In this document: one piece after another, positions 1-64,000 of the stretch
How positions within the stretch are numbered: the first letter of the stretch is position 1
Layout: the number at the start of each line of letters is the position of its first letter
Virus record (IMG/VR): IMGVR_UViG_3300047189_000056
Coordinates: 541 to 64,540 of that record
Source: a virus
Taxonomy: Duplodnaviria; Caudoviricetes
Length of the DNA: 64,000 nucleotides
Reading direction: 5' to 3' (one strand)
Translations under genes and position numbers: made by a program
Notes under the pieces: generated by a model
Database searches by the model: none
The model's input: only the letters and a program-made list of their open reading frames with translations
What the model was told of the DNA's origin: nothing

Positions 1-1200
1 GGTAACGATTCAACAGGTGATGGCTCACAAGGGAATCCTTGGAAAACCATTACTAAAGCCAATTCATCAATGGCTGCTCTTGCTGATGGGACGCATTCGA
101 TTCTTTTTAATCGAGGAGATACTTGGGAACTGGGAGGAGGAGAAGCCACCGCATTATTAATAACCGTTTCTGGCACCGATGAGTCTAACAGGGTAACGGT
201 TGGTGCTTATGGGACAGGAAACAAACCCAAAATAGACGGAAATGCTGCTGATGACGGAGGAGTGGTACAGGCTGATGATCAATCACACTTCATAATTGAG
301 AACTTAGAGGTTTATGGTGGTCATGCTGGGAATTCCGTAATAAACATCCCACATGGATATAATAGAGTTACCCAACATGACATGATTATTCAGGATTGCA
401 TCATTCATGGTGCTTTAGCGGGTAATCATGTAATTCATATAAAAAACACGGCCGTAACTCCATTCCACGATATTATCATAAGAAGGAATGTGGTTTATGA
501 TTCTGGTCACAATGGTATCAAGGTGTCGGATGGAGTCACCTATTGCTACATCTATGAAAACACCATTTACAATATTACTCATAACGGAATTGATACCTTA
601 GATATAGAAAACTCCAATACCAATAATTATCTGGAAATTTATAGTAATGACATCTACGATTGTAGTACAGGTATTTACGCATGTGATGTTACCTATACGA
701 ATATATATGACAATGATATCTATAATATGTCGCTAAAAGAAGCTGGTATTTCCTCCTATGGGGTAAAGGTTGCCCAACAGGTATCAGCGGGTAGTGACCA
801 TGTTATTGTTAGAAATAATCGGGTCTGGAATGTGGTAAATGCTGGACTCTCAACCTATGCTATATGGATGACTTACACGACAAATAAGAGTTGTTGGAAT
901 AATACTGTCTATGGTTGTACGAACACTATGTATCATGATGGATCAATCAGCAACTACAATAATTTAGCCTATGCCAATGTAAGTGATTCGGCAGATTTAA
1001 GGAATTATGGTTCAGACCCAAAATTTGTAAGTGTGGTAACTCCCGATTTTCATCTTCAATCAAACTCACCTGTGATAGATCAGGGCGTGGATGTTGGGTT
1101 GCCTTATAGTGGAGAAGCACCAGATTTGGGGGCGTATGAGTATGGGGTAACAATCCCATCACTTCAAGGAGTCACAATTATAGGAGGTACGGTAAAGTGA
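1..1200 (+). CDS. Right-handed parallel beta-helix (pectin lyase-like) protein, 5'-truncated by the window edge; tailspike/depolymerase-like
   Basis: Frame open from base 1 (GNDSTGDGSQGNPWKTITKA, DUF1565-like motif); PbH1-like repeats (IYENTIYN, IYSNDIYD); C-terminal DFHLQSNSPVID...PDLGAYE motif. Confidence 0.8.
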   Translation, partial: GNDSTGDGSQGNPWKTITKANSSMAALADGTHSILFNRGDTWELGGGEATALLITVSGTDESNRVTVGAYGTGNKPKIDGNAADDGGVVQADDQSHFIIENLEVYGGHAGNSVINIPHGYNRVTQHDMIIQDCIIHGALAGNHVIHIKNTAVTPFHDIIIRRNVVYDSGHNGIKVSDGVTYCYIYENTIYNITHNGIDTLDIENSNTNNYLEIYSNDIYDCSTGIYACDVTYTNIYDNDIYNMSLKEAGISSYGVKVAQQVSAGSDHVIVRNNRVWNVVNAGLSTYAIWMTYTTNKSCWNNTVYGCTNTMYHDGSISNYNNLAYANVSDSADLRNYGSDPKFVSVVTPDFHLQSNSPVIDQGVDVGLPYSGEAPDLGAYEYGVTIPSLQGVTIIGGTVK

Positions 1201-1527
1201 AAATTCTAATCTTTTTCTTGCTTCTTTTCCCAACCTTAGTTTGGGCAGATCCTTTCCTTGTCTGCGATCCTGTTGCCACAGGTTCATGGGATAAAATTGA
1301 GATTGCCATTGATGGAGGAATGGCAACTTTGATCGACCCACAGGTGATGGCGGATACCAAACTCAGACTTTATTATGATCTAAAAGATGTCACGGTAGGG
1401 GGGGCATACAGTCAGGTTGAGAGGGAAAAGGGGTGTCTGGTATGGTGCCTATAGCACACCTGATCCTTTTTCCTTTACTCGACCTGCTGTTTCCGCCCCT
1501 GCCAATATAACCATACAGGAGAAATAA
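1197..1527 (+). pseudogene. Signal-peptide Fn3-like small protein split by a frameshift in a G7 run (1398-1404)
   Basis: MKILIFFLLLFPTLVWA signal; removing one G gives ...DVTVGGHTVRLRGKRGVWYG...PFSFTRPAVSAPANITIQEK* ending at 1527, just before the next ATG at 1529. Confidence 0.65.
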
Positions 1528-1528
1528 G

Positions 1529-1873
1529 ATGAAAAAAACAACCTTAATCTTGTTAGTGGCTTTGATGGTGGGGGCGGGCATCGCCGATACCTATGCAGGT
1601 GAACAGATCGATCTGACAGCTCCAGTTATCATCTCCTCTTATAAGGTGGTGGAGTTAAATCTTGATCTAAGGGGCCAAGAGATCAGGATTGTCCTTTACA
1701 ACAGCGTGGCGAATAAGGACATAACAGTAACCTACAATGGACCCACTGCCCTAGCCCTGATAATTCAGATGAATAAGATGAATTTCTCTACGAACTCGAT
1801 GCAGAAAGTTATCTTAAATAAACTAATCACAGATGGGAAAATCATAGGAACTATATCTGGAATTCCAGACTGA
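1529..1873 (+). CDS. Exported hypothetical protein
   Basis: SD AGGAG; MKKTTLILLVALMVGAGIA signal-like N-terminus. Confidence 0.7.
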   Translation: MKKTTLILLVALMVGAGIADTYAGEQIDLTAPVIISSYKVVELNLDLRGQEIRIVLYNSVANKDITVTYNGPTALALIIQMNKMNFSTNSMQKVILNKLITDGKIIGTISGIPD

Positions 1874-2658: not shown

Positions 2659-2818
2659 AAGAGAGGTAATATGATCACAGAAAAAAAAGAGTTGGATCTG
2701 TTAGGGAAGTACCGAAAGGCTGGTTATATAGTCTCATTAATTAAACTCTGTCCCCATTGTGGGAAAGAAATCTCTTTCGTAGTTGGGGGCAAGAAAAAAA
2801 AGAAAGGAGGAAAGTAAG

Positions 2819-35542: not shown

Positions 35543-36117
35543 CTTCCGGCAAATCGTTGTATGAGAATTACCGTTGGATGCCGTTTGAAACTATTAAAAT
35601 GGCTATTCGCATGATAGATTACCTTGGAATTGTGCCGACGCATTCGATTCTTGATTTTGGGTGCGCTCTCGGGTTTTTGGTGAAAGCTTTTCGCATTTTA
35701 GGATTCGAAGGTTGGGGTTGCGACATTTCTCATTATGCGATTGAATCCTCTGATGGTGTAAGACCATATCTAAAATTATGTGATCAGTCTTTTCCTTTCA
35801 GACAGAGATTCGATTTTGCCATAGCCAAGGATGTTTTTGAACACATTAATGAACCGCAACTTCACCATATTCTTGTAACGTTGCGGAAACATGCAAATGA
35901 AATATTTGCCATTATCCCTTTAGGAGAAAATGGAAAGTTCATCGTTCCCGCTTATCACTTGGATAAAACTCATCGGATTGCCGAGAACGCATGGTGGTGG
36001 AAGACTGAGTTCAGTAAGGCAGAATGGCAAATAGAAAAATTTCGATATAGGGTTGAAGGGATTAAAGACAATTGGGCCGACTACGAAAAAGGTAATGGAT
36101 TCTTCACATTAAGATGA
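35497..36117 (+). CDS. Class I SAM-dependent methyltransferase
   Basis: ILDFGCALG, GCDIS.YA, DVFEH. Confidence 0.88.
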   Translation: METELFDADYFERGLASGKSLYENYRWMPFETIKMAIRMIDYLGIVPTHSILDFGCALGFLVKAFRILGFEGWGCDISHYAIESSDGVRPYLKLCDQSFPFRQRFDFAIAKDVFEHINEPQLHHILVTLRKHANEIFAIIPLGENGKFIVPAYHLDKTHRIAENAWWWKTEFSKAEWQIEKFRYRVEGIKDNWADYEKGNGFFTLR

Positions 36118-44141: not shown

Positions 44142-44687
44142 ATGGCAGACTTAAAAATAACCGAATTGGCTGAAGATGTTGCACCAGATTCTGATGATCT
44201 ATTTGTTACCGTAAAGGATTCAGATGGAATAAATAGAAAAGTTAGCATTGGTAATCTTGTTGCTTCCATTCAAAATGGTGGGGTAAATGAAATCTCGGTT
44301 GCTGGTCTCTCAGGACTATTGGCGGATGACCAACACGTTTTGGATGCTGAAGTAAGGGCTGCTCAAGTTGGTTTTGGTGCCCCCGTAGCTAAGAGTATTG
44401 ATACTATCTATCAGGCAACCACTGATGGGATTTTAGTAGGTAGTGTAGAAGAGCCAAGTTTAGGCTATGGGTGCATGATGACGGTATACTCCGATGCAGC
44501 TACTCCTCCAACCACCAATCGAGGTGCCGTATTGGCGGAATACACTAATGCTACTTATACAAAATATGCTTCTATCTCAGTTCCTATACTGAAATCTGAT
44601 TATTATAAAGTAACAAAGGGTAATTTTGGACTAAATAATAGTGGTAATGAAGTATTTACTATATATTTTTATCCTTTAGGAAGTTAG
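44142..44687 (+). CDS. Short fibre/tip-like protein
   Basis: MADLKITEL...D...V...RKVSI.NL adaptor-type N-terminus. Confidence 0.55.
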   Translation: MADLKITELAEDVAPDSDDLFVTVKDSDGINRKVSIGNLVASIQNGGVNEISVAGLSGLLADDQHVLDAEVRAAQVGFGAPVAKSIDTIYQATTDGILVGSVEEPSLGYGCMMTVYSDAATPPTTNRGAVLAEYTNATYTKYASISVPILKSDYYKVTKGNFGLNNSGNEVFTIYFYPLGS

Positions 44688-44688
44688 A

Positions 44689-45336
44689 ATGACCTTAAAA
44701 ACAATTATTGTGATCTTAATTCTGGTAGGTTTACTGATTCCAAGCCAAGGACAAACCCTCGATTTGACAGTCAGAGGGCGGTGGAATTTCTTTAGCGATA
44801 ATTCACTGGAACAAGGAAAAGGAATTGAAACTAAAGTTGGACATAAATGGGCTTTTCTTTGGGGATCATATGATATGACCCAGATGCGTCTATATGGACA
44901 AAGAGCCGGGGACATAAATCTCTATGGAGTAGGAGGAGGAGTAAGAGTAAAATTGGCGGACTCCCTTTTCGTCAACGGGAAACTTGGATATTTTATTCCT
45001 TCCTCGACGATGGCCAATGATCCAAAGAAATTCAATGAGACATTGGGTTTTGTGATCGGGGGGTATATTGATGATATTGGTTATTCTCCTTCATCCAAGT
45101 CTTGGTACAGCACCTATGATTACCAACTTAAAGGGAATATTGGAGGATCTGTCGGGTTAGATTTTGTACACAAAATTTATAAGAAACTTTTCTTTACTTT
45201 TAATGGAGATTACAGATTTTTGAAACTGCCGGAAACATTTAAGGGAATCGGATCAGAGGAATCTTGGATAGAATTTAAGGGCCATAGAAATTTCAGTGGT
45301 GGAATTATTGGAATCGGACTTAAATATGAATTCTAA
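44689..45336 (+). CDS. Outer-membrane beta-barrel protein (moron-like)
   Basis: Signal peptide; alternating amphipathic strands; C-terminal IGLKYEF beta-signal. Confidence 0.75.
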   Translation: MTLKTIIVILILVGLLIPSQGQTLDLTVRGRWNFFSDNSLEQGKGIETKVGHKWAFLWGSYDMTQMRLYGQRAGDINLYGVGGGVRVKLADSLFVNGKLGYFIPSSTMANDPKKFNETLGFVIGGYIDDIGYSPSSKSWYSTYDYQLKGNIGGSVGLDFVHKIYKKLFFTFNGDYRFLKLPETFKGIGSEESWIEFKGHRNFSGGIIGIGLKYEF

Positions 45337-45384
45337 TAAACCTGTGAAGTAGTTACTTTGAACCGGATGAGATAGGAGGATATT

Positions 45385-45867
45385 ATGGGGAAACTTAGTG
45401 ATCAAACAGAAAAAACAAGTTTAGGTCAAACTGATTTTATATATCTTGTTCAGTCTCCTTATGGGTCTGGGGATGATAGAAAGGCTACTATAGCAAATTT
45501 AGGAAATGCTGTGGGAAGGTTTCAGGATAGAGGAGATGTCTCAGCCTATGATTGGTTGACAGCAAGTTTTACTAAGGACGATGCGTGGCATGATTTAGAT
45601 TGTTCATCCATTGTGCCAGATGGAGCAAAAGTTATCTCCTTTATTGTCTATGCACAGACAACTGCGGTTCCTAAGCTCTTTAAGATGAGAAAAAAGGGGA
45701 AAACGGGGACCGTCGTTATTGATTTTCAGATGTGGACGCAGGTAGTAGCGGGTGCAATTGCCCTAACCGCAAGAGTTCCATGCAGCACAGATAGGATAGT
45801 CCAATATTTTGCAAATGCCGCAACGTGGACTGTTCTATCACTCGTTATAAGTGGTTGGGAGTTTTGA
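45385..45867 (+). CDS. Short fibre/tip-like protein
   Basis: N-terminus similar to 44142 (RKATIANL); W.DLD.SSIVP.GA motif. Confidence 0.55.
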   Translation: MGKLSDQTEKTSLGQTDFIYLVQSPYGSGDDRKATIANLGNAVGRFQDRGDVSAYDWLTASFTKDDAWHDLDCSSIVPDGAKVISFIVYAQTTAVPKLFKMRKKGKTGTVVIDFQMWTQVVAGAIALTARVPCSTDRIVQYFANAATWTVLSLVISGWEF

Positions 45868-48343: not shown

Positions 48344-49423
48344 ATGAATGGTATGGGTGGTGAATTTGATACTTTAAGTCCTTTTGAGAAAGTATTTCAG
48401 ATTCTTACAACCATTGGAGGAAGGCCCGGAGCCTTAGGGGAACTCAAGGATGCAGAAACCGCAAGGAAACTCAGGCGGTTTCAACTTGAGGATCTCATGA
48501 GAACCAGAGAGGAGGGGGAACGGCCGGCATCCCTTCCTATTTTCACTCAAAAAGAAATGCCCTCTGCCGGACTTGAGCATCTTCCGTCAGGGGAACCTCC
48601 TTCTTATGATTTCCCAACTGCTTATAGAAAGGAAATGGGTGTTGAGCAGATCCCGATCCCTGGTTATAAAATGCGGGATATTGGGAAGGTTGACTTAGGA
48701 GATCTCTATAAAAGTTTTACTGGTCAGAAGAAATCTTATGCAATCAATAAAGAGGGTCAGACAATGACTTATACTCCCGGGGAGCCATTGCCTCCTGGAT
48801 ATACTCCGATAGAACATCAGTTTAAGGGAGAATCGGATGAAGCGATCCAACACGTTAGTAATCCATGGCAAGACGAGTCTGGAAACCTTTATGTCACTAA
48901 AACTTACAAGAGTGGTAGGACAGTTCACGAACCGGCGATGGTTCCTGGGATAACCCCAGAAGTACAACCTTCTGTGGCTCCCTCTATTGGTCAGCCCTCT
49001 CAACCGTCTTTAAAAGGAAGACAACTTAAAGGTAAACAGACCCCTAAACTTCCTCTTCACCGAGATTATGCCGATGAAAAAACCGGCATTACTTGGAGAC
49101 AGGAATACGAGGATGATGGGAAAACCAAGAAGGGGATTCCTTATAAAGTCAGAGTTCCTGCACCAAAGCAAACTAAGGCACAAATAGATGACCTTTTCCA
49201 ACGCTACAATATCCGTAGAATTGAAGCCCCTACCGATCCTGCACGTATAGAGATGATTAAGAATCTGAAGGAAACGTTTCCTGATATTGAAATTCCTCTT
49301 CATTTGCCAGACCTTACAAGGGAGGAGTTCGAGAAGTATATAAGTAGTGGTAAGATGCCGGAGAAACAGGCCGAGAAAAAGAATGTCATTAGGTATGATG
49401 TTAAAGGGAACAGGATACAATGA
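48344..49423 (+). CDS. Putative ejection protein
   Basis: Position; C-terminal IRYD..GNRI motif coupled to the next gene. Confidence 0.55.
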   Translation: MNGMGGEFDTLSPFEKVFQILTTIGGRPGALGELKDAETARKLRRFQLEDLMRTREEGERPASLPIFTQKEMPSAGLEHLPSGEPPSYDFPTAYRKEMGVEQIPIPGYKMRDIGKVDLGDLYKSFTGQKKSYAINKEGQTMTYTPGEPLPPGYTPIEHQFKGESDEAIQHVSNPWQDESGNLYVTKTYKSGRTVHEPAMVPGITPEVQPSVAPSIGQPSQPSLKGRQLKGKQTPKLPLHRDYADEKTGITWRQEYEDDGKTKKGIPYKVRVPAPKQTKAQIDDLFQRYNIRRIEAPTDPARIEMIKNLKETFPDIEIPLHLPDLTREEFEKYISSGKMPEKQAEKKNVIRYDVKGNRIQ

Positions 49424-54566: not shown

Positions 54567-54953
54567 ATGAGATTATTGAGACTTCTAATCGTCATTGCAT
54601 TTTTACTAATGGCTCTGTCAAGTTATGCTACCGATGTTCTCAGGCCCACGGGCTATGAAGCAGTCACCGTAGATACCACTGTAGGGGGAGTCAGACTAAC
54701 TGAGGCTAAATACTATAACACCACTACAAACAAGATAGTCTCCGATTATGCAATTGTAGTGCTGGAGACAGCTCAGATTAGGTTTACGACCGATGGATCA
54801 ACAGCACCCACCATTACTGTGGGGGCACCCATGGAGGTAGGTCAGGTCTGGGCATTTGAGAGCTTTGATGAGCTCAAGAAATTTAGAGCTATACAGACAG
54901 GAGGCAATAGCGGAAGTATTAAGGTTCTCTATTATAAGCGATATGTTCAATAA
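54567..54953 (+). CDS. Signal-peptide small beta protein (virion-like fold)
   Basis: MRLLRLLIVIAFLLMALSSYA; ETAQIRF..DG..PT...G, FRAI. Confidence 0.7.
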   Translation: MRLLRLLIVIAFLLMALSSYATDVLRPTGYEAVTVDTTVGGVRLTEAKYYNTTTNKIVSDYAIVVLETAQIRFTTDGSTAPTITVGAPMEVGQVWAFESFDELKKFRAIQTGGNSGSIKVLYYKRYVQ

Positions 54954-54971
54954 AAATCTTTAAGAAATTAG

Positions 54972-55053
54972 GGAAATAAACCGGTCTGCAGCCGGATTTC
55001 CAAAGTTTAAATAAAACCTACCGTGCATATGGCATGCGTAGGCTTTTTGTTTT
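54972..55053 (+). ncRNA. Two-hairpin structured cis element, copy 2
   Basis: CCGG-TCTGCAG-CCGG, AGTTTA linker, stem with CCGTGCA, U-tract. Confidence 0.55.
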
Positions 55054-55078
55054 TAGAGGATCAAAACGGAGGAGTAAA

Positions 55079-58000
55079 ATGAAAAAGCTGTTTGTTTTAC
55101 TATTTACTTTAGTCCTGATAAATTGCCCGATATATGCTGAAGCTGCAAAGCTTCTTATTTCATCCTCGGGCAATGCGACAATGATTCAAGGTAGGAATGT
55201 TGAATCAGCGGCTCCTACGGATGCGGATTGCCTTATGTGGAATGATGCAGCAAGCGAATGGCAGGCTGCGGCTTGTCCAGGAGCTGGAACAGGAGCCCCG
55301 ACTGATGCCGAATATGTAACTTTTGCAGCGGTTGGTGCCTTAAGTGCAGAACGGGTGCTGACGGAAGCCACGGGTATTGACCTCTCGACGGCTATTGCTG
55401 GTCAAATCAGGGTTTCGGTTAATACGACTGAAATAGGGACAACGACATGGGGTTCTGGTGGGGCATCATACCTTTGGACTTACAATGTTTCAGGTACTAC
55501 CGATCCTGTTTTAACCGTGAGTGATGGTGTTCTTAATCTATCGGCAGGAACACTCCAACAGGCAGGGGTAAAGGTTGCATTGGGAATAGCGACCTCGACC
55601 GACAATCGCCTTGTGAGATGGGATTCTACGGGTGGCCAACAGCTTCAGACTTCGGCAATCACGGTTGACGATACGGGGAATACCTCCGGGATGGGAACCC
55701 TCGGGGTTGGAGCAATCACAGGCGGGACATACAACAAGATCACCATCACGACTCCTGCAACCGGGGCGACCCTGACATTGGCAGAAGGAAGCAACCTTAT
55801 TACGGCTGGAGCTTTTGCAACCACGTTCACTACGACGGATACCACTGGAGTCACCTTGCCTACTTCTGGAACCCTTTACGGAACGGCAACGGGGTCAATT
55901 ACCTCGGCTCAGTTGGCAACATCTCTCTCTAACGAGACAGGGACAGGGGTTGCGGTATTTGGAACATCTCCGACTTTTACTACCACCATCCTTCCTTCTG
56001 CGGCTGGAGCAACGGCAATAGGCACGGAACTTCTTCCATTCTCAAGTATCTTTATCGGGGACGAGGCAAGCAAAAGTGTAAAACTTGTCAACACGGCTGC
56101 TGCTGCAGATGTAGTTCTGACTTTGCCTTCAACTACAGGGACACTAGCACTGATCGATTCTCAGGTATTTACCACTTACATAGAATCTCCCTATATCATT
56201 CTCGGGTCTGCTGCAACGGCGGCTGATGCAGGGGCTATACGGTTGCCCAACGCTACGGGAAATATAGCATGGGAGAAAGCCACGGCAGGGACAGACACGA
56301 CCCTTGGGCTTAATGCCACAGACGATATGGTTCTTGCCCTTGTTGCCGCAGACGACTTGTTCCAGATTACCACTGGAAACCTGAAAATAGGGGCGGGGAC
56401 ACAGACGCAGACCCTTGACGGTGCAGATGCCTACATTACTGGGTTCTTGGAGGTGGATGGCATAATTTATGCCGATGGTGGGGTAACGACTACTACCCTG
56501 ACGGCAGGGTCAGCGAACTCCCTCACTCTTGGTACTGACTCGGCAGGTGGAGTACCCGCCATTGGTTCTGTCATTTTCCACAATGCTACCAACACGAACC
56601 ATTTTACAATTACTTCCGGGACGAGTGGCGCTGCAATCGGATGGACCCTTCCAACGGCGGCTCCGGCAGGAAACGATTATTTGGTCAAATCCTCAACTGC
56701 TGGGGTTCTTGGTTATACTGATCCTGCGACTTTCCAAGGTGTTCTAACTAACTCAGCAGGTCTTCTTGGAGCCCTGAGTGATGAAGTTGGAACTGGATAT
56801 GCAGTTTTCAATACAGCTCCAACCTTTGTAACATCGATTACACCAACAGCAGCAGGAGCTACAACCATAGGAACAACTGCTCTTGAGTGGGGAAATGTCT
56901 ATCTGACGGATAGTGCAGTGATCTATGGTCAAGCCGACCAAAGTGCCACTCTCACAAGTTCAGCCTCTCTCTGGACAGCAAATAACTTTGGGGTAACTAC
57001 TCAGTTTAAACTTCCTTCTTCTGATGCAGATCCTACGGCAACAGCAGGATATTTAAGGCATGATTCAACCATTACTAACTTCACAGGTGGTGGTCTGGTC
57101 TACTACAACGGTGCCGCAATTAAACAATTAGTTGATATGACCACAGCCACGGCACAGGCGTGTACGGAGGCCCAAGTAATTGTCTATGATGCCACCGCTG
57201 ATCTATGGAAGTGTGCGGATGCCCCTGCCGCAGATGCCGACATTGTGGCAATTGCCGCCCTCACTGTGGCACAGGGCCATTTTATTGTGGGTAATGCAGA
57301 TCCAGTCTGGTCTCTTTCGACTTATCACTTACCCATTGTAGCCTGCACGGAGAATCAGATATTAAAAGCAGATGCGAGCGGTAATTTCTTATGTGGGGCT
57401 GATGCGGACACTGGCGGAGCAACAGCATGGAATGCTATTGGGGATGCAGCTGCTCCAGGGTCTATCGACTTTGTTACTCACCAACAGACTATTACGGGAC
57501 AGTTAAATTCTGCCGGTGCCATGCTCACCATGACCAATACCGTTACTGATCTAGGTGCTGATGTTTCTCTTATAGACTTTGGCTTTAAGGATAGCGATGA
57601 TGCAAATGCGTTTGTTTTCAGAGTGTACGATACCGATGCTACTTCAACAATTCTCGCAAGCATGACTGGCCTTGGAGCATTAAGTGTAGCGTCAATCACG
57701 GCAACGGGAGCCGTTGTTCCCGGGACGGCTGATACCTATACTCTTGGTAGTGCTACAGCGGAATGGTCAGACCTCTTCCTTGGAGATGGTGCAGTAATCT
57801 ACGGTCAGATAAATCAGAGTGCCACCCTTACCTCCTCTGCTTCTTTATGGACTGCTAACAACTTTGCCATAACTGGCTATCTTGCACTTGGAGCTGATCC
57901 TGCCGATACTGGATCTATTAGGCTTCCTAATGCTGGTTATATTTATTCCGAAGCAGATGTGGCCGGAACTGATATTTCAGTTATAGGGGTGGATTCTGCA

Positions 58001-61000
58001 GAAATTATTCAAATTGGTGCCTCGGGTGCATCTGGAGTAACAATAACTCCAGCATTGACAGTCACAGGTCACGTTACCCTTGAAGCCATCACGAGTACTG
58101 GGGCAACTGGCACAGGGAAACTTGTATTTGATACCGCTCCGGTCTTCGTAACCAGTATTGAAGCACCATTTCTTATTCTTGGAACAACTGCTACGGCTGC
58201 GGATGCTGGTGCAATTAGATTACCAAATGCAGCCTATATCATGGCAGAAGCCGACACAGCGGGAACTGATATATCTATTATAGGAGTAGACTCTGCAGAG
58301 ATTATTCAAATAGGAGCTTCTGGGGCAAGTGGTGTGACTATTACACCTGCCCTAACAGTCACGGGACATCTTACTTTTGAAAGCATCACTAGCACAGGCG
58401 CAACCGGAACAGGGAAATTAGTTTTTGACACAGCGCCAGTTTTTACAACTAGCATTGAAGCTCCATTTTTAGTTCTTGGAACAGCCACTACAGCCGCAGA
58501 TACCGGAGCAATTAGGCTCCCGAATGCGTCATATATCTTCTCTGAGGCTGCACCTGACGGAACAGATATTTCGGTAATCGGTGTCGATTCCGGTGAGATT
58601 ATTCAGATAGGTGCAAGTGGTGCAAGTGCAGTTACCATTACTCCTGCTACTACTATCACTGGAGCATTAACTTTATCCAGTACAGTCAACAAGGTAACAA
58701 TTACTCCACCGGCCTCGGCGGCCACCCTTACTCTTGTGGATGGATCAAGTCTTATTACTGTGGGGGCTTATGCTGTTACATTGACAGCAACGGGAACAAC
58801 AGGGGTAACACTTCCGACTTCTGGAACGCTTTTAAATAATACATTGGCAGATGGATATATCTATGTTGGAAGTGTAACCACCAATGTAGCTACCGCAAGG
58901 TTAATGTCAGGGGATGTCACTATTAGTAACACAGGAGTTACGGCGATCGGAGCTGATAAAGTAAATGCTACCCATATCGATTGGGGTACTGGAACAAACC
59001 AGATTGATATTGATGATATTCCTGATAGTGCAACATATCAGAAGGTACTTGCCGATGATGTGGATACTGCCGGTCATGTCAATAGATTGTATGACTCAGA
59101 TGGTGTTGGGTATATCACGATAACTGGTTTATCGGTAGCAAGGGCTATTACCCTCGTTGATGCCGCACAGACCCTCGTGAACCTTGCTTCTAACCAGATA
59201 TTTACCGGGACTAATACTTTTCAGACCGTACAATACTTTGGGGATGCCTCGAATGCTGGAACTTTCAGGGTTTATGATGGGAGTTCCAACTACACAACCG
59301 TGGGATTCCCGGCGGCGGCAGGAAATATGACCTTCAATCTTCCAATTACCAATGGAACCAGTGGGAATTTCTTGCAAACAGATGGAAGCGGAAATACTTC
59401 ATGGACTATAACAGGGATTGCTACAGGTGCAGGAGATTGTACGGGTGGAGCTTGCCTTGATGGTACGAGCGATGGTGGGACATGGATTAAATTCTATGAT
59501 GCACAGGGAGCAACCCAACTGATCGGGGGAGATACGGCCGGTGTGGTGGTTCTTACCTTACCAACTACAACCTCAACTCTCATGGGTACAGGTTTCAGTA
59601 ACGGGGATGGTCTTATTTTCGGCGACACCTATCCTCCAGATGCTGCTGGGGAGATTGGATATTCTGGTGGAGTTCTTGCTTATTATGATGGAACAGGTTC
59701 AAGAACAGTTATGGCTGAGGCTCGTGCAAGTGGGGGGTTATTATTTGGAGACTCAACTCCTGATACGGAAGGCGAGATCGGATATGCTTCGGATGTACTC
59801 TCATATTGGGGAACCTCTGCTACGAGAAGTGTTGCAGCACTCGAAAGGGCACAAACTTTCACGGCTAACAATGTGTTCGGTGATGCCGATACTGACACTC
59901 TCACCCTTCGATCTATGCTAATTGGAGGGAATTCAAGGGAGGTCCAGATCAATGCTGGGACTCGGACGGCTCCAACTTATCCATCTGCAGCTCCAACACA
60001 GGATCTTTATGTGAAGGGAAATGTAGAGGTAGCGGGAACTATCTATGGAGCCGGTTTTACTGGGAGTGTGGGGACAGAAGGCCAGAGGGGAATCACCTTA
60101 ACAAGCAACAATGCTCTAACACCTACGGCAGATCAGATATATTTTGTGCTTGATGGACTTCACTTTTCAGAGGCAGGAGCAGAAAAACATCCAATGAAAT
60201 TGGAGGATGCACAGACAGCTACTGGACTCAAAATCTTTGAAGCCGGTATTTATCTTGGGGATACGGATACAACGACGGTATTCAAATTATCTGATGGAAG
60301 TACCAATTACGTGACAATAGCGGTTCCGGCTATAGCCGCCGATTATACTCTAACCCTTCCTACGACAGATGGAAATGCTAGCCAGTATCTTAAGACGGAC
60401 GGCAGTGGAACTCTATCATGGGATTCACCCACGGCTACAGCAGCAGGATCAGATACACAGGTTCAGTTTAATGATGGTGGTTCGGCTCTTGGTGGAGATA
60501 GCGGTTTTACCTTCAATAAGACCACCAATGCTTTGACCCTTGGTGCGAATGCCGCAGGTGGTACTCTCGTTCTTTACAACGAACTTGGGGTGACTGATTA
60601 CACGGTCACAATTGCACCCCACGCCTCTCAGGCCGCGAATGCCACGATTACCTTACCGGCGGCTACCGCTACTCTCATCGGGACGGGTGCGAATACCTTT
60701 ACCGGTGCTCAGACGCTAAAGGCAGGATCAATTGGAGTGGGTGGAGCCCCCCTCTACTTCACGAGTGGCACGAACTTAACATCTGCGGCAGTAGGTGCAA
60801 TGGAGTTCGACGGCACCTACCTTTATTTCTCTCCATCCACCACCCGCTATTCCATTCCCTTGGCACTTGCAGCGGCACCCCTCAACTTCACAACGGGGGG
60901 GACTACGGCCCGCCTCATTACCTTGCCTGATGCCGCCATTACTGTGGCTCGTATCGATGCTGGCCAGACATTCACGGGTATTCAGGCCATGACTTCTCCT

Positions 61001-62926
61001 GACCTAACTACCAGTGTGACGACAACCTCAACTTCATTCACCGCCTTTGCTGGGGCAACAACCTTATTGACTATTGGTGGAACTGGGTCAAGTGCATCCC
61101 TATTCGCACCAAGTACCCTTGATGCCACTACCTCAATTACAGGGGCAATCAGAACTTCTGGAGGTATCTCTGCTGCGAAAGCATTGAACATTGGAACAAC
61201 CATAATAGCAGGAACGAGTATTGAAACACCTTTTCTTGTTCTTGGTACTTCCGCCACAGCGGCAGATGCCGGAGCAATAAGACTCCCTAATGCTACCAAT
61301 ATCGCATGGGAACTGGCAGCAACCGGAACAGATGTAACGTTTGGTGTTAATTCCTCAGATGATATGGTTGCGGCACTTGTGGCAGCGACAGATATTTTCC
61401 AGATCACTACGGGTAATTTTAAAGTAGGTGCAGGGTCAAATGGGAATACCTTTGATGGTGCGGATGCCTATATTACAGGATTCCTCGAAGTGGACGGTAT
61501 AATTTATGCTGATGGAGGAATATCGGGAGCTCATAATGGAACAGTTGGAGCAACGACTCCGGCCGCAGGGGTATTCACGACCCTCACGGCTAATGCAGTC
61601 AGTTCTTTAACCCTTGGTTCAACAACTGGTCCCATAAAAGGAAGTGCGATATTCTGGGGGGCTACCTCTGGTTCAAGTGTCCTATCTGCTCCTGATGTTG
61701 CTGGTTCGGCTACAGCCATAGTCCTTCCTTCTGCGGCTGGGACACTTCAATTAACAACCGGATCTCCAGCAGGGTTTATTATCGCTTCTCAGGCCATTGG
61801 CGACCTTCTCTATGCCTCGAGTACGACGGCATGGGCAAGATTGGGAATTCAAGCAGCGGGTTATATTCTTGCAGGTGGGACAATCCCAGCATGGTCTAAC
61901 GCTCCCCAGATAACCACGATAGAGTTAGGTGCGGCCACAGATACCACACTTAGCAGGGTTAGTGCTGGTGTGATTGCTGTTGAAGGTGTAACATTAGCAA
62001 CCTTAACAGCCCCCACTTTTGTAACTTCTGTCGCCTTGCCAGCTACTTTAACTTCTGCGGCTGCGGTTACTTGGACTCTCATGGACAATCAGGCATCGGG
62101 TCTCTCCTTTGGAGCTACAGGTGCAGCGGATATTCTGAAGATAGGCACCTTAGACGCTGGGCCAGGAGTTACCGTGACAGGATTCCTTACGGCTACAGGA
62201 ACCATTACAGGATCACTCACAGGGAACGTCACTGGAAATGCAAGTGGATCAGCAGCAACCCTTACTGGAACTCTCGCCAACGTTGCATCCAGCACGTCAG
62301 CCAACTTAGCTACTTGCTTATCTGATGAGCAAGGGACTGGGGTGGCAGTCTTCTCAGACTCCCCAACTTTTGTGGATGACATCACGATTGCAGCAGCAGG
62401 AGTTAAACTCACAGGGGCAAATGGCGCCTTGACAATCTTAGGTCTGGGTGATGGTGCAGATGAGGATGTAAAGATTGATCTCAACACTACGGCCAACACG
62501 ATCATCATTTCAAGTCCTGCAAGTTCAGCAACAACTCTTTCACTCTCAGCCCTCAACCTTGTTACCACAGGCACGATTCAGGGTGGAATCTTAATTAACT
62601 CTGATGCTGATGGTATGGACGCAGCAGCAATGACTGCGGTTGGAGTTCGTGGAACACTCTTCATTGCCACTGGTGCAGGGACATGGATTCTACCTACCGC
62701 AGTAGTTGGAATGTCAGTATGTGTAAAGGATAGTGGAACGAGCCATGACCTTATCGTTGATGTCACGACGAACGATTACATCATCCTCAAGGGGACGACA
62801 CTGGTGCAAAACGCTGGTATCACCAATGCCGCCACAGCCACCACAGGTGACTTTGTGTGCCTCGTGGCAACAGCAGCAGGATACTGGTCTACGATGGGTA
62901 TGGGTGGTGCCTGGGTCAGTCAATGA
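55079..62926 (+). CDS. Giant T/G/A-rich fibre/adhesin-like protein with signal peptide (2615 aa)
   Basis: SD GGAGGAG; MKKLFVLLFTLVLINCPIYAEA; fibre-type motifs TLTLPTTDG...L.TDGSG.LSW and GSDTQVQFNDGG; internal repeats. Confidence 0.8.
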   Translation: MKKLFVLLFTLVLINCPIYAEAAKLLISSSGNATMIQGRNVESAAPTDADCLMWNDAASEWQAAACPGAGTGAPTDAEYVTFAAVGALSAERVLTEATGIDLSTAIAGQIRVSVNTTEIGTTTWGSGGASYLWTYNVSGTTDPVLTVSDGVLNLSAGTLQQAGVKVALGIATSTDNRLVRWDSTGGQQLQTSAITVDDTGNTSGMGTLGVGAITGGTYNKITITTPATGATLTLAEGSNLITAGAFATTFTTTDTTGVTLPTSGTLYGTATGSITSAQLATSLSNETGTGVAVFGTSPTFTTTILPSAAGATAIGTELLPFSSIFIGDEASKSVKLVNTAAAADVVLTLPSTTGTLALIDSQVFTTYIESPYIILGSAATAADAGAIRLPNATGNIAWEKATAGTDTTLGLNATDDMVLALVAADDLFQITTGNLKIGAGTQTQTLDGADAYITGFLEVDGIIYADGGVTTTTLTAGSANSLTLGTDSAGGVPAIGSVIFHNATNTNHFTITSGTSGAAIGWTLPTAAPAGNDYLVKSSTAGVLGYTDPATFQGVLTNSAGLLGALSDEVGTGYAVFNTAPTFVTSITPTAAGATTIGTTALEWGNVYLTDSAVIYGQADQSATLTSSASLWTANNFGVTTQFKLPSSDADPTATAGYLRHDSTITNFTGGGLVYYNGAAIKQLVDMTTATAQACTEAQVIVYDATADLWKCADAPAADADIVAIAALTVAQGHFIVGNADPVWSLSTYHLPIVACTENQILKADASGNFLCGADADTGGATAWNAIGDAAAPGSIDFVTHQQTITGQLNSAGAMLTMTNTVTDLGADVSLIDFGFKDSDDANAFVFRVYDTDATSTILASMTGLGALSVASITATGAVVPGTADTYTLGSATAEWSDLFLGDGAVIYGQINQSATLTSSASLWTANNFAITGYLALGADPADTGSIRLPNAGYIYSEADVAGTDISVIGVDSAEIIQIGASGASGVTITPALTVTGHVTLEAITSTGATGTGKLVFDTAPVFVTSIEAPFLILGTTATAADAGAIRLPNAAYIMAEADTAGTDISIIGVDSAEIIQIGASGASGVTITPALTVTGHLTFESITSTGATGTGKLVFDTAPVFTTSIEAPFLVLGTATTAADTGAIRLPNASYIFSEAAPDGTDISVIGVDSGEIIQIGASGASAVTITPATTITGALTLSSTVNKVTITPPASAATLTLVDGSSLITVGAYAVTLTATGTTGVTLPTSGTLLNNTLADGYIYVGSVTTNVATARLMSGDVTISNTGVTAIGADKVNATHIDWGTGTNQIDIDDIPDSATYQKVLADDVDTAGHVNRLYDSDGVGYITITGLSVARAITLVDAAQTLVNLASNQIFTGTNTFQTVQYFGDASNAGTFRVYDGSSNYTTVGFPAAAGNMTFNLPITNGTSGNFLQTDGSGNTSWTITGIATGAGDCTGGACLDGTSDGGTWIKFYDAQGATQLIGGDTAGVVVLTLPTTTSTLMGTGFSNGDGLIFGDTYPPDAAGEIGYSGGVLAYYDGTGSRTVMAEARASGGLLFGDSTPDTEGEIGYASDVLSYWGTSATRSVAALERAQTFTANNVFGDADTDTLTLRSMLIGGNSREVQINAGTRTAPTYPSAAPTQDLYVKGNVEVAGTIYGAGFTGSVGTEGQRGITLTSNNALTPTADQIYFVLDGLHFSEAGAEKHPMKLEDAQTATGLKIFEAGIYLGDTDTTTVFKLSDGSTNYVTIAVPAIAADYTLTLPTTDGNASQYLKTDGSGTLSWDSPTATAAGSDTQVQFNDGGSALGGDSGFTFNKTTNALTLGANAAGGTLVLYNELGVTDYTVTIAPHASQAANATITLPAATATLIGTGANTFTGAQTLKAGSIGVGGAPLYFTSGTNLTSAAVGAMEFDGTYLYFSPSTTRYSIPLALAAAPLNFTTGGTTARLITLPDAAITVARIDAGQTFTGIQAMTSPDLTTSVTTTSTSFTAFAGATTLLTIGGTGSSASLFAPSTLDATTSITGAIRTSGGISAAKALNIGTTIIAGTSIETPFLVLGTSATAADAGAIRLPNATNIAWELAATGTDVTFGVNSSDDMVAALVAATDIFQITTGNFKVGAGSNGNTFDGADAYITGFLEVDGIIYADGGISGAHNGTVGATTPAAGVFTTLTANAVSSLTLGSTTGPIKGSAIFWGATSGSSVLSAPDVAGSATAIVLPSAAGTLQLTTGSPAGFIIASQAIGDLLYASSTTAWARLGIQAAGYILAGGTIPAWSNAPQITTIELGAATDTTLSRVSAGVIAVEGVTLATLTAPTFVTSVALPATLTSAAAVTWTLMDNQASGLSFGATGAADILKIGTLDAGPGVTVTGFLTATGTITGSLTGNVTGNASGSAATLTGTLANVASSTSANLATCLSDEQGTGVAVFSDSPTFVDDITIAAAGVKLTGANGALTILGLGDGADEDVKIDLNTTANTIIISSPASSATTLSLSALNLVTTGTIQGGILINSDADGMDAAAMTAVGVRGTLFIATGAGTWILPTAVVGMSVCVKDSGTSHDLIVDVTTNDYIILKGTTLVQNAGITNAATATTGDFVCLVATAAGYWSTMGMGGAWVSQ

Positions 62927-63495
62927 TGAAGCGATGTAGTTATTGTCGAACAATTAAACCGATAGATTGCTTTTATAAGCACAGTTATAGTAAGGATGGA
63001 TTATCGAATGTCTGTTCGGATTGTCATAGGACGATGTCGAAGAAGTGGTCAGATAGTAATAAAGATAAAGTAGCAGCAAAGTCTTTAAAATGGAAAAATT
63101 CAAACAGGGAAAAATGGAGAGAAGCAAAACGGAAATGGATGAAAAATAGAAGACAAAAAGCAACCCCGATAGATAAACTACACCATAATGTCAGATCTAA
63201 GGTGTGGGAACAGTTGAAAAAAGGTAAAAACAGAAGATCTACCTTTGTATTATTGGGATATACTTCCGATGAATTAAAATTGAATCTTGAAAAACGGTTT
63301 AAATCTGGAATGTCATGGGATAATTATGGGGAATGGCATATCGACCACATTGTACCAAGGGCAGCATTTAACATCACTTGTGCAGAGGATTTTGATTTTA
63401 AGAGATGTTGGGCATTGGACAATTTGCAACCTCTATGGAAGACTGATAATTTTTATAAAAGTAATAAACTGATTATTCCATGGGTAACACAATAA
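62923..63495 (+). CDS. HNH-type homing endonuclease
   Basis: KRC..C...F.......DGL...C..C; GMSWDNYGEWHIDHIVP...NLQPLW..DN..K. Confidence 0.88.
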   Translation: MMKRCSYCRTIKPIDCFYKHSYSKDGLSNVCSDCHRTMSKKWSDSNKDKVAAKSLKWKNSNREKWREAKRKWMKNRRQKATPIDKLHHNVRSKVWEQLKKGKNRRSTFVLLGYTSDELKLNLEKRFKSGMSWDNYGEWHIDHIVPRAAFNITCAEDFDFKRCWALDNLQPLWKTDNFYKSNKLIIPWVTQ

Positions 63496-63505
63496 AGGAG
63501 TCAAC

Positions 63506-64000
63506 ATGAAAAAACTTCTTCTTATAATTCTGATTTTGTTCTTCCCAGTTTTGGTTAGGGCTGGTGGAGTGATGATAGTAGGAGGAGGAACGCCAGTAAT
63601 TGCGGGTCACACCGACTATACCGCTGATGTCAATTGCCAAGGGGCATGGCTATTTACTGATTTAACTGATTCCTCTGGAAAAGGAAATACCCTCACCAAT
63701 GTTGGCACAACAACCTTTAGTAATGCAGATTTGCCCACTGGATATACAACGGGTCAAGCAGCAGTTTTAAATGGGACAACCCAAACTCTTATCCGTGCAG
63801 ACGCTGATTTAACTACAAATTTCCCAGGCAAGAAAGCAACGTGCCCCGATTGGGCTTTAGCATTTTGGTTCAAACCAGATGCCGTTGCAACAGACGCAGA
63901 GATGGTTAGTAAAGCCAATAATGGATGGTATACCAATTTAACCTGGAGAACTGGTGCAGTTTATGATGCACTTTATTTCAAACAGTATGATACGGGATGG
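63506..64000 (+). CDS. Signal-peptide LamG/ConA-like protein, 3'-truncated by the window edge
   Basis: SD AAGGAG; MKKLLLIILILFFPVLVRA; W.F....DSSG.GN.LT, FWFKP. Confidence 0.75.
   Translation, partial: MKKLLLIILILFFPVLVRAGGVMIVGGGTPVIAGHTDYTADVNCQGAWLFTDLTDSSGKGNTLTNVGTTTFSNADLPTGYTTGQAAVLNGTTQTLIRADADLTTNFPGKKATCPDWALAFWFKPDAVATDAEMVSKANNGWYTNLTWRTGAVYDALYFKQYDTGW

What the first reader, a model, noticed from the sequence alone, without database searches (positions are those of the whole stretch)
54567..64000. Fibre module in which every protein appears to be Sec-exported
Seen: in the fibre position after the ejection genes, all non-HNH ORFs with a visible start have classical signal peptides. 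These are 54567 (SYA), the 2615-aa protein (AEA), 63506 (VRA) and, across the circular junction, 1197 (VWA) and 1529. The giant protein has phage-fibre-type motifs and closely spaced Cys pairs (DCLMW...AACP; ACTEAQ...WKC; ACTENQ...FLC; DCTGGAC). Known: tailed-phage fibres normally fold and assemble in the reducing cytoplasm without signal peptides. Inference: either fibres are exported, disulfide-bonded in the periplasm and attached to virions at lysis, or the phage builds a cell-surface adhesin, possibly with the beta-barrel at 44689.
Basis: partly seen in the sequence, partly recalled or inferred. Interest (0 to 1): 0.9.

Follow-up and report, generated by a model that had tools for sequence, protein, structure and literature searches.

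The report
Phage fibre-like proteins carrying export signals
In this uncultured 64-kb short-tailed phage, six neighbouring late genes, including a giant fibre-like protein, all begin with ordinary bacterial secretion signals, so they probably mature outside the cytoplasm where phage particles are built; that is unusual and still unexplained.

Summary
The contig is a circle of 64,413 bp. Between the 1711-aa protein gene and the lysis genes lie six non-HNH genes: 128 aa, 2615 aa, 274 aa, 427 aa, 85 aa and 114 aa. All six begin with cleavable Sec-type leaders.

By my own rule, 11 of 104 crude ORFs are leader-like, and 6 of those fall within 8 consecutive ORFs. Only 102 of 200,000 permutations reach that clustering.

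The leaders recur in relatives: 12 of 16 hits to the giant protein, and all 6 proteins sharing its N-terminal domain. The small-protein family carries a leader in only 51 of 150 members. Cysteine pairs in the giant protein are kept or lost together.

Export and periplasmic folding are likely. Whether the proteins then join the particle, stay free or sit on the cell surface is unresolved. The phage also has leaderless short fibre-like genes beside its nozzle gene.

The nearest described parallel is the leader-bearing MAT fibres of Bdellovibrio. This scan has noted the same theme before on other phage DNA. No SignalP run or experiment was possible.

The parts
54567..54953 (+). 128-aa protein: signal peptide (about residues 1-21, cut after SYA) followed by a jelly-roll domain. 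It belongs to a large family of phage small proteins in which the leader is optional.
   Evidence: Translation. AF2 model pLDDT 95.8, helix 2-17 plus beta sandwich 24-126. 570 family hits; 51 of the best 150 carry a leader. Fold matches are generic jelly rolls only.
55009..55052 (+). Stable hairpin with a U-tract (terminator-like) between the 128-aa gene and the giant gene, followed by a strong Shine-Dalgarno site before ATG 55079.
   Evidence: Sequence. Fold of 54960-55062: -30.3 kcal/mol, z -3.6, 0 of 200 shuffles as stable.
55079..62926 (+). 2615-aa fibre-like protein. It has a signal peptide (cut after AEA), a conserved N-terminal domain of about 200 residues, a long Thr/Ala/Gly-rich repetitive body with five cysteine pairs, and a conserved C-terminal knob.
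   Evidence: Translation. No Pfam, PHROG or PDB sequence match. 16 non-self homologues, 12 with leaders. Cysteine columns. Tip shared with a leaderless fibre in L011.
62923..63495 (+). HNH/endonuclease VII-type homing nuclease with no leader. It interrupts the block and its ATG overlaps the stop of the giant gene.
   Evidence: Translation. phrog_1035, E 1.4e-23.
63506..64000 (+). 5' part of a 274-aa protein that runs through the circular junction to genome base 457. It has a signal peptide (cut after VRA) and a concanavalin-A-like (Laminin_G_3) fold.
   Evidence: The C-terminal part matches PF13385 at E 2.7e-5, 24.8 bits, below the 27.6 cut-off.
1..1200 (+). 3' 399 codons of a 427-aa right-handed beta-helix protein. 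Its start (genome base 457, window -83) encodes a signal peptide cut after SWA, followed directly by the 'YYF..SG.D..GDG...PWKTI' cap typical of its homologues, most of which carry leaders.
   Evidence: PF13229 at 26.3 bits, cut-off 25.9. 81 of 119 homologues carry leaders.
1197..1454 (+). 85-aa protein with a signal peptide (cut after VWA). No known family.
   Evidence: No Pfam or PHROG hit.
1529..1873 (+). 114-aa protein with a signal peptide (cut after TYA or GIA). No known family.
   Evidence: No Pfam or PHROG hit. No GenBank phage match.
1883..3034 (+). Probable lysis genes that end the operon: an 80-aa one-TM protein, a 118-aa protein with a weak M15-peptidase match, and an 83-aa two-TM protein.
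   Evidence: Translations. Peptidase_M15_4 at E 0.065, below cut-off. The holin and endolysin roles are inferred.
44142..45867 (+). Context: two leaderless fibre-like genes (181 aa at 44142-44687; 160 aa at 45385-45867) directly after the nozzle-type 1188-aa gene. Between them lies a leader-bearing 215-aa outer-membrane-barrel-like gene (44689-45336).
   Evidence: The N-terminal 41 residues of 44142 are 41% identical to the start of the leaderless L011 fibre. 2 of 119 homologues of 44142 carry leaders. The barrel assignment comes from Atlas features and structure, as a lead only.

Best explanation
The block is a late-expressed, Sec-exported set of proteins that bind or cut host-surface glycans. 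It comprises a giant fibre-like adhesin with a small jelly-roll partner, a concanavalin-A-like lectin-fold protein, a right-handed beta-helix glycanase-type protein and two small proteins.

Shown:
- Six consecutive co-oriented genes between the large internal-protein gene and the lysis genes encode classical cleavable signal peptides.
- The leaders recur in relatives.
- The cysteines come in pairs that are kept or lost together.

Inferred:
- The proteins are made late and cross the inner membrane through Sec.
- They lose the leader to signal peptidase I.
- They fold and form disulfides in the periplasm of a two-membrane host.
- They therefore bypass the cytoplasmic line that builds head, tail and the leaderless short fibres (44142, 45385).
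- When the lysis proteins open the envelope they are set free together with the particles and act outside the cell.

My split within this reading: the enzymes, lectin and fibre act free, about 0.35; the giant fibre, perhaps with the 128-aa protein, docks onto the particle once the inner membrane is breached, about 0.2.
For: Leader anatomy in all 6 genes.

Clustering: 6 of the genome's 11 leader-like ORFs (of 104) lie within 8 consecutive ORFs. 102 of 200,000 permutations reach that.

Control: homologues of the leaderless gene 44142 are leader-like in only 2 of 119.

Conservation:
- 12 of 16 non-self hits to the giant protein carry leaders of unrelated sequence.
- All 6 proteins sharing its N-terminal domain do (P0011, P0012, P0016, L016, L026, L027).
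- In L016, L017, L026 and L027 the only leader-like ORFs are a small protein and the giant homologue next to it.
- In L013, 5 of 24 ORFs are leader-like and all five are consecutive.
- Four loci with a leaderless member of the 128-aa family have 0 of 19, 14, 18 and 17 leader-like ORFs.

Disulfide signature:
- Pair 51/66 is present in 3 homologues and absent as a pair in 4; no homologue has only one of the two.
- Pair 1454/1459 is jointly kept in 5 of 6.
- Pair 2548/2594 is kept in 5 of 5 aligned.

Late, operonic setting: gaps of 9-11 nt or overlapping stop/start codons link the block to the preceding gene and to the lysis genes.

Extracellular end point: leaderless relatives exist for both the small protein and the fibre tip. 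The job must therefore also be reachable by plain lysis.

Two-membrane host: the OMP-like 44689 ends in ...YEF.
Against: - No trained predictor (SignalP) and no experiment; the leaders are judged by my own rule.
- No host is known.
- No transcript, proteome or particle data.
- A 2615-aa fibre free in the medium has no obvious use.
- Docking within the short interval of lysis has no precedent that I know of. The only docking test I could run gave no answer, and it is listed under Tried and rejected.
- The architecture (leader, conserved N-domain, fibre, tip) equally fits a surface-displayed fibre of the Bdellovibrio MAT kind.
- L011 mixes a leaderless fibre with a leader-bearing beta-helix gene, so the module is not always all-or-none.
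- A terminator-like hairpin precedes the giant gene, so its expression level and timing are uncertain.
Confidence: 0.55

Rival explanations
1. Envelope-resident function in the producing cell. After Sec export the giant protein is anchored through its conserved N-terminal domain and displayed on the cell surface, like the MAT fibres of Bdellovibrio. Alternatively, the set stays in the envelope and binds or destroys the phage's own glycan receptor, which would exclude other phages and stop progeny sticking to debris. The proteins never become part of the particle.
For: - Same build as MAT proteins: signal peptide, a conserved beta-rich domain directly after it, a phage-fibre-like stalk and a variable tip (passages of PMC10769870; N-domain conservation 49-51% in A5).
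I saw only an unannotated 368-aa ORF there and did not verify it.
- It carries three more leader or lipoprotein genes on the other strand beside the lysis genes, plus an OMP-like moron.
- The cassette sits at varied positions in other phage genomes, as morons do.
- Leaderless fibre-like genes exist for the particle.
Against: - The block is tightly packed into the late operon just before the lysis genes, so the cell would lyse soon after.
- No separate promoter stands out: 17 promoter-like sites against 15.2 expected.
- Leaderless relatives of the tip and of the small protein cannot work this way.
- No known route takes a 2615-aa protein across the outer membrane. Pfam finds no two-partner, autotransporter or T9SS signature.
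- Homology of the N-domain to the MAT N-domain was not tested.
Confidence: 0.25
2. Secretion before lysis. The beta-helix and lectin-fold proteins are classical two-step secreted enzymes (Sec, then the host's type II secretion system). They clear capsule or biofilm matrix around the infected cell ahead of the burst. The giant protein follows the same route or is unrelated to them.
For: - 81 of 119 homologues of the beta-helix protein carry leaders. The protein has no N-terminal particle-binding domain: the beta-helix cap motif follows the leader directly.
- In L011 a leader-bearing beta-helix gene sits next to a leaderless fibre, so it acts independently of the fibre's route.
- That pectate-lyase-type beta-helix enzymes are type II secretion substrates is recalled, not tested.
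Against: - The host and its secretion systems are unknown.
- This does not explain leaders on the 128-aa protein, the giant protein or the two small proteins.
- Some family members use T9SS C-terminal domains (PF18962 in several hits), which the window protein lacks.
Confidence: 0.1
3. The N-termini are not export signals. They would be hydrophobic segments with another role, such as membrane tethering or an assembly or pro-peptide helix removed by a phage protease, or products of wrongly chosen start codons. All six proteins would then stay in the cytoplasm like ordinary fibre proteins.
For: - No trained predictor was run.
- Matrishin et al. 2023 (passages) treat predicted signal peptides on capsid proteins as cleaved by prohead protease rather than as export signals.
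- Two thirds of the 128-aa family lack the segment.
Against: - All six have the full n/h/c anatomy, with hydrophobic runs of 9-13 residues. That is too short for a membrane anchor. Pro, Ser or Gly precede a small-x-small site.
- The start of the giant gene is fixed by a strong ribosome-binding site.
- The segments are conserved in kind but not in sequence across homologues.
- Cysteine pairs co-vary.
- The heuristic flags only 2 of 119 proteins in a leaderless control family.
Confidence: 0.08

Closest known systems
Mosaic adhesive trimer (MAT) fibres of Bdellovibrio bacteriovorus (Caulton et al. 2024, PMC10769870; passages read)
   Same: Phage-tail-fibre-like proteins that start with a signal peptide, followed at once by a conserved beta-rich domain, then a fibre and a variable adhesive tip. 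Some relatives carry the S74 chaperone-protease domain (PF13884 on 2 of 16 hits here).
   Different: MAT fibres are chromosomal genes of a predatory bacterium and were shown on the cell surface. Here the gene is in a phage late operon next to the lysis genes and location is unknown. The window protein has no S74 domain. Homology of the two N-domains was not tested.
Leaderless tail fibres and tailspikes of short-tailed phages (for example T7 gp17 and SU10 fibres, recalled; the 401-aa fibre of locus L011, seen here)
   Same: Position after the internal-protein genes at the end of the late operon; a long repetitive stalk; a distal knob. The last 200 residues are 52% identical to the tip of the L011 fibre. 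The tail is of SU10 type: adaptor PF24175 at 35 bits and phrog_9983 tail protein.
   Different: Those fibres have no leader and start with a particle-binding domain. The L011 fibre starts with the motif also found on window gene 44142. The giant protein starts with a signal peptide and a different N-domain.
Leader-bearing accessory genes placed among or beside fibre genes: lambda Lom and Bor, T5 Llp, Cor of phi80/N15 (all recalled, no call)
   Same: Phage genes with Sec or lipoprotein signals close to receptor-binding genes. They act in the envelope of the producing cell, in serum resistance, receptor blocking or protecting progeny from debris.
   Different: They are single small proteins, often expressed from the prophage. 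Here six consecutive genes, including a 2615-aa fibre-like protein, are involved and are packed into the late operon.
Right-handed beta-helix proteins (PF13229), mostly leader-bearing, from unnamed metagenome contigs
   Same: The 427-aa protein has a leader followed by the 'TYY..S.G.D..GT...PWKTI' cap and beta-helix repeats. 81 of 119 homologues have leaders.
   Different: It is encoded in a phage. Phage depolymerases normally sit on the particle through an N-terminal anchor and have no leader (recalled).
PblA/PblB of Streptococcus mitis phage SM1 (recalled, no call)
   Same: Phage fibre-type proteins that also act as adhesins off the particle after phage-driven permeabilisation.
   Different: They have no signal peptide, the host has one membrane, and they reach the surface only through lysis.

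Membership tests
Sec-type (signal peptidase I) signal peptide | Positively charged n-region, hydrophobic h-region of about 7-15 residues, and c-region with small uncharged residues at -3 and -1 | tested here: met
   All six proteins: 1-2 Lys/Arg, h-runs of 9-13 residues, sites SYA, AEA, VRA, SWA, VWA, TYA. Scored by my own rule. SignalP was not available.
Sec-type (signal peptidase I) signal peptide | Actual export and cleavage | not testable with these tools
   Needs fusions or N-terminal proteomics.
Lipoprotein (signal peptidase II) signal | Lipobox [LVI][ASTVI][GAS]C at the end of the h-region (motif recalled) | tested here: not met
   None of the six has it; the giant protein's L-I-N-C has Asn at -1. 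Two minus-strand neighbours do have it: 3112 V-V-A-C and 4477 V-L-S-C.
Tailed-phage tail fibre / receptor-binding protein (part of the particle) | N-terminal domain that binds the tail | tested here: inconclusive
   A conserved N-domain of about 200 residues exists (49-51% identity to L016, L026, L027). It has no match to any family, and its AF2 model failed at pLDDT 35.9.
Tailed-phage tail fibre / receptor-binding protein (part of the particle) | Distal receptor-binding tip shared with known fibre proteins | tested here: met
   The last 200 residues are 52% identical (E 6e-46) to the tip of a leaderless 401-aa protein in L011. That protein carries the widespread leaderless N-terminal motif of gene 44142. 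That the L011 protein is a particle fibre is itself inferred.
Tailed-phage tail fibre / receptor-binding protein (part of the particle) | Presence in purified particles | not testable with these tools
   Uncultured phage; no proteome.
MAT superfamily (Bdellovibrio) | Signal peptide followed directly by a conserved beta-rich domain, then a trimeric fibre | tested here: inconclusive
   The same order of parts is seen. Sequence homology to the MAT N-domain was not tested, as no MAT sequence was at hand. Trimer state was not shown.
MAT superfamily (Bdellovibrio) | Display on the cell surface | not testable with these tools
   Needs microscopy.
Right-handed parallel beta-helix (PF13229) | Pfam match above the gathering score | tested here: met
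   26.3 bits against a 25.9 cut-off, residues 145-308 of the window part.
Concanavalin-A-like lectin/glucanase (Laminin_G_3, PF13385) | Pfam match above the gathering score | tested here: inconclusive
   The C-terminal 151 residues alone give E 2.7e-5 and 24.8 bits, below the 27.6 cut-off. The whole junction-spanning protein was not handed to the tool.
   44689 is 215 aa and resembles small OmpW/OmpA-type barrels. Pfam finds nothing on it or on the giant protein.
Type IX secretion substrate | C-terminal Por_Secre_tail domain (PF18962) | tested here: not met
   No such match on the window's six proteins, although several beta-helix homologues carry it.

The most novel reading that the evidence does not exclude
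The particle's long fibre is not built in the cytoplasm. It is exported by Sec together with its small partner, disulfide-bonded in the periplasm, and joined to finished, fibre-less particles only when the holin breaches the inner membrane. Tailed-phage assembly in this lineage would then span two compartments. Since this scan has seen the same pattern on many other phage genomes, this may apply to many uncultured phages.
Probability: 0.2. Interest if true: 0.85.

Novelty: new variant of a known kind. Interest (0 to 1): 0.62.

Why it matters
Textbook assembly of tailed phages takes place wholly in the cytoplasm, and receptor-binding proteins are predicted and engineered on that assumption.

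A conserved set of fibre-type, lectin-type and glycanase-type proteins that carry secretion signals means one of two things. One possibility is that some phages mature their host-recognition gear in the periplasm, with disulfides and possibly host glycosylation. The other is that phages equip the dying or lysogenic cell with fibre-like adhesins of the kind so far described only in Bdellovibrio.

Either outcome would change three things:
- how such genes are annotated in viromes;
- how recombinant fibres and depolymerases from uncultured phages should be expressed (periplasmic rather than cytoplasmic);
- how phage-driven changes of the cell surface are understood.

The leaders give a simple handle for a test.

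Tried and rejected
**Structure of the giant protein's first 350 residues.** AF2 on a 6-row alignment gave pLDDT 35.9 and is unusable.

**Docking test.** Complex prediction with 44142, 45385 and the giant N-domain (residues 23-240) returned 'no answer', score 0.00. This counts neither for nor against binding.

**Function of the 128-aa protein from its fold.**
- The model is excellent, but matches are generic jelly rolls.
- Foldseek against the PDB gave nothing at E <= 0.001.
- VIA gave a best Z of 7.8 to the PM2 spike P1, tied with cupins, and Z 6.9 to Bacillus Ena.
- BFVD gave 27 uncharacterised phage proteins.
- No function follows.

**Are the small leader proteins upstream of giant homologues in L016, L017, L026 and L027 the same family as the 128-aa protein?** hhalign probability was 1%, so they are not detectably related.

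**Host identification failed.**
- No tRNA genes.
- No DNA match in GenBank phages.
- The portal is only about 32-35% identical to phages of Sinorhizobium, Burkholderia and Ralstonia.
- The genome-contig scan gave three contigs binned to three different phyla, two of them short (under 5 kb) and one a 129-kb contig.
- Cluster look-up gave no names.

**Relatives in cultured or GenBank phages.**
- None for the giant protein, the beta-helix protein, the N-part of the lectin-fold protein or the 114-aa protein.
- One weak hit for the 128-aa protein, MW202577.1, at 31.6% identity.
- PDB sequence search gave none for the giant protein and only a weak xylosidase hit for the beta-helix protein.
- Relatives of the C-terminal third of the 1711-aa protein in viral contigs: none.
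- The Atlas look-up of the giant N-domain gave only weak viral-fibre-like leads, scores 0.87-0.91.

**Own promoter for the block.** Promoter-like and terminator-like sites were not above shuffles: 17 against 15.2, and 9 against 7.4.

**Considered and rejected for the six proteins.**
- Lipoprotein signals: no lipobox.
- Type IV pilin-like leaders: no G/F-E pattern (recalled motif, checked by eye).
- T9SS and two-partner or autotransporter routes.

**Shared enzyme trio.** I noted that L014 carries a glycosyltransferase, methyltransferase and radical-SAM-like trio like window 34676-37037. The radical-SAM pair is only weakly alike, E 0.014.

**Literature.**
- Five searches listed no paper that describes Sec signal peptides on fibres of tailed phages. 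I saw only listings and abstract starts for these.
- I read passages of PMC5723332, PMC10769870 and PMC10367356.
- PMC9509320 (SU10) was seen only in a listing.
- Supplementary tables of these papers were closed. They may list leader-bearing phage proteins that I could not see.
- Absence from these searches does not prove absence from print.

Full report
**Material.** The window is bases 541-64540 of a single 64,540-bp contig. The first and last 127 bases are identical, so the genome is a circle of 64,413 bp with 42% G+C. It encodes:
- a portal (phrog_156, E 2.4e-137), a major head protein (phrog_334, E 4.4e-81) and a 1188-aa tail protein (phrog_9983);
- an SU10-type adaptor (PF24175, 35 bits).

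It is therefore a short-tailed phage. No DNA relative exists among GenBank phages. The portal is at best 34.5% identical to that of Sinorhizobium phage PBC5.

**The observation.** Downstream of the 1711-aa gene (49420-54555) the plus strand carries, in order:
- a 128-aa gene (54567);
- a giant gene whose real start is ATG 55079, with GGAGGAG just upstream, giving 2615 aa;
- an HNH nuclease (62923-63495);
- a gene starting at 63506 that runs through the junction to give 274 aa;
- a 427-aa beta-helix gene that starts at genome base 457, 83 bases before the window;
- an 85-aa gene (1197) and a 114-aa gene (1529);
- then the probable lysis genes (1883-3034).

All six non-HNH proteins begin with one or two Lys/Arg, a hydrophobic run of 9-13 residues, and a Pro/Ser/Gly-containing end with small residues at -3/-1 (SYA, AEA, VRA, SWA, VWA, TYA). 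The sixth was hidden outside the window.

**More than chance?** I made a crude ORF list (longest first, at least 45 codons, 104 ORFs, some surely spurious). I scored N-termini with a simple rule of my own: charge, an uncharged run of at least 10 residues with high hydropathy, and a -3/-1 site.
- Eleven ORFs pass. Six of them lie within eight consecutive entries.
- In 200,000 random placements of 11 among 104, only 102 reach six in a window of eight.
- The other five are three small genes on the minus strand just past the lysis genes (3112 and 4477 with lipoboxes, and 4212), a one-TM ORF at 24896, and the 215-aa gene at 44689.
- The rule is not indiscriminate. It flags 2 of 119 homologues of the leaderless gene 44142, and 0 of 19, 14, 18 and 17 ORFs in four unrelated phage loci.

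It remains a heuristic; SignalP was not available.

**Conservation in relatives of the giant protein.**
- A search with the first 500 residues found 17 proteins. One is a fragment of the query itself. Of the other 16, 12 are leader-like and 4 (P0019, P0023, P0025, P0026) start like ordinary cytoplasmic fibre proteins.
- The six proteins that share the giant protein's N-terminal domain all have leaders, with no sequence similarity among the leaders themselves. They are P0011, P0012, P0016 and the genes in L016, L026 and L027; the last three are 49-51% identical in alignment A5.
- In L016, L017, L026 and L027 the giant homologue is directly preceded by a small leader-bearing protein. These two are the only leader-like ORFs of each locus: 2 of 5, 2 of 3, 2 of 4 and 2 of 7.
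- In L027 the pair follows a 2115-aa leaderless protein, as in the window. In L016 it follows a terminase-like gene. In L026 it follows a head-tail-connector-like gene. In L013 a five-gene leader cassette (5 of 24 ORFs, all consecutive) lies between head and tail genes of a phage with a tape-measure gene.

The cassette is therefore mobile.

**Conservation in relatives of the 128-aa protein.**
- It belongs to a large family with 570 representatives at E <= 0.001. I examined only the best 150. Of these, 51 (53 by a looser rule) carry a leader and the rest begin at the conserved domain.
- The members in L013 and L014 carry leaders (BLASTP E 2e-14 and 2e-5).
- The members in the L005 group, L001, L002 and MW202577.1 do not. 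In those loci no neighbour carries a leader either.
- The model is confident (pLDDT 95.8): a leader helix plus a jelly roll. Its fold matches are generic.

**Conservation in relatives of the beta-helix protein.** It has 119 non-self homologues, of which 81 are leader-like (16 of the best 20). The same 'TYY..S.G.D..GT...PWKTI' cap follows right after the leader. It looks like a secreted enzyme and has no particle-binding N-domain.

**An exception to all-or-none.** L011 has a leaderless 401-aa fibre next to a leader-bearing beta-helix gene.

**Cysteines.** The mature giant protein has 11 cysteines, ten of them in five close pairs.
- Pair 51/66 is present in the window, P0012 and L026. It is replaced on both sides in P0011, P0016, L016 and L027. 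No sequence keeps only one of the two.
- Pair 695/712 is kept in 3 of 3 aligned sequences.
- Pair 1454/1459 is kept in 5 of 6 and lost jointly in the sixth.
- Pair 2548/2594 is kept in 5 of 5 aligned sequences.

This is the pattern expected of disulfides, which form in the periplasm or outside the cell.

**Context that bears on the fate of the proteins.**
- Right after the nozzle-type gene lie two short leaderless genes, 44142 (181 aa) and 45385 (160 aa). Their N-termini carry a motif found on many leaderless small phage proteins.
- The L011 fibre starts with that same motif, 41% identical over 41 residues. It ends with a tip 52% identical to the last 200 residues of the giant protein, E 6e-46.
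- So the giant protein's tip is a module that also sits on an ordinary leaderless fibre, and this phage probably has particle fibres of the ordinary kind.
- Between the two short genes lies a leader-bearing 215-aa protein. It ends in ...YEF and resembles small outer-membrane barrels (Atlas features 0.96-0.97, structure TM 0.65-0.78). Pfam is silent on it. This points to a host with an outer membrane.
- A stable hairpin with a U-tract precedes the giant gene. Otherwise the block is joined to its neighbours by gaps of about 10 nt or by overlapping codons.

**Most likely mechanism.** I take export and periplasmic folding as likely, about 0.9 summed over all readings that include it. The step after that is inferred. 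Because leaderless relatives exist for both the small protein and the tip, the function should be one that can also be reached by simple release at lysis. That means outside the cell, either free or on the particle. I give this reading 0.55, of which about 0.2 is docking of the giant fibre onto the particle after the inner membrane is breached.

The main rival, at 0.25, is an envelope-resident role. The order of parts (leader, conserved N-domain, fibre, tip) is that of the Bdellovibrio MAT fibres, which are displayed on the cell surface (passages of PMC10769870). The phage also carries other envelope-directed genes. Secretion of the enzymes before lysis (0.1) and 'not exported at all' (0.08) are the remaining rivals.

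**Comparison with what is known.**
- Leader-bearing phage genes next to fibre genes are known as single accessory genes (Lom, Bor, Llp, Cor; recalled).
- Matrishin et al. 2023 report signal peptides on several Porphyromonas phage genes but not on tail parts (passages).
- My five literature searches listed no paper on leader-bearing fibres of tailed phages. Supplements were closed.
- This scan has noted the same theme on other phage genomes. Later checks there let the observation stand but priced the particle-assembly reading at about 1 in 10. I used those notes only as leads to the two papers and as a caution on my odds.

**Verdict.** Sec export is probable. The fate of the proteins is open. 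I class it as a new variant of known kinds: phage fibre-type proteins, and exported fibre adhesins of the MAT kind. It would be of high interest if the particle-docking reading holds.

Noticed in passing
window 3112-3678 (-), 4212-4463 (-), 4477-4686 (-): Three more envelope-directed small genes sit on the opposite strand, just past the lysis genes. Two have lipoboxes (V-V-A-C and V-L-S-C) and one has a plain leader. They are candidates for lysogenic conversion or superinfection exclusion. The 69-aa one also has zinc-ribbon-like CxxC pairs (weak Pfam hits).
   Followed up: partly
window 44689-45336 (+): A leader-bearing 215-aa protein ending in ...YEF is inserted between two leaderless fibre-like genes. 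By Atlas features and structure it resembles small OmpW/OmpA-type outer-membrane barrels, like a Lom-type moron. Pfam finds nothing.
   Followed up: partly
window 55009-55052 (+): A terminator-like hairpin with a U-tract lies between the 128-aa gene and the giant gene (fold z -3.6). It may throttle or gate expression of the block.
   Followed up: partly
locus L011 3231-4436: A leaderless 401-aa fibre is a chimera. Its first 41 residues resemble window gene 44142 and its last 200 residues resemble the tip of the giant protein (52% identity). This is direct evidence of module exchange between leaderless and leader-bearing fibre genes. An HNH-like gene and a leader-bearing beta-helix gene follow it, in the same order as in the window.
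   Followed up: yes
locus L014 5507-7717 and window 34676-37037: Both phages carry a glycosyltransferase-like, methyltransferase-like and radical-SAM-like trio inside the structural genes, near leader-bearing fibre cassettes. The two radical-SAM proteins are only weakly alike (E 0.014), so a link is unproven.
   Followed up: partly
window 39714-40565 (+): The 283-aa protein matches the SU10 adaptor family (PF24175, 35 bits, above cut-off). This places the tail among SU10/Kuravirus-type podophage tails, although the portal is closest to phages of Sinorhizobium, Burkholderia and Ralstonia.
   Followed up: no
window 62923-63495 (+): The HNH/endonuclease VII gene sits exactly between the giant gene and the lectin-fold gene, and its ATG overlaps the giant gene's stop codon. 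L011 has an HNH-like gene at the corresponding place after its fibre.
   Followed up: no
proteins P0011, P0014, P0052 and window 44689: Several homologues have leaders that would expose an N-terminal Gln after cleavage (the 'Q rule' of Bacteroidota quoted by Matrishin et al. 2023). The six window leaders do not, which argues against a Bacteroidota host for this phage.
   Followed up: no
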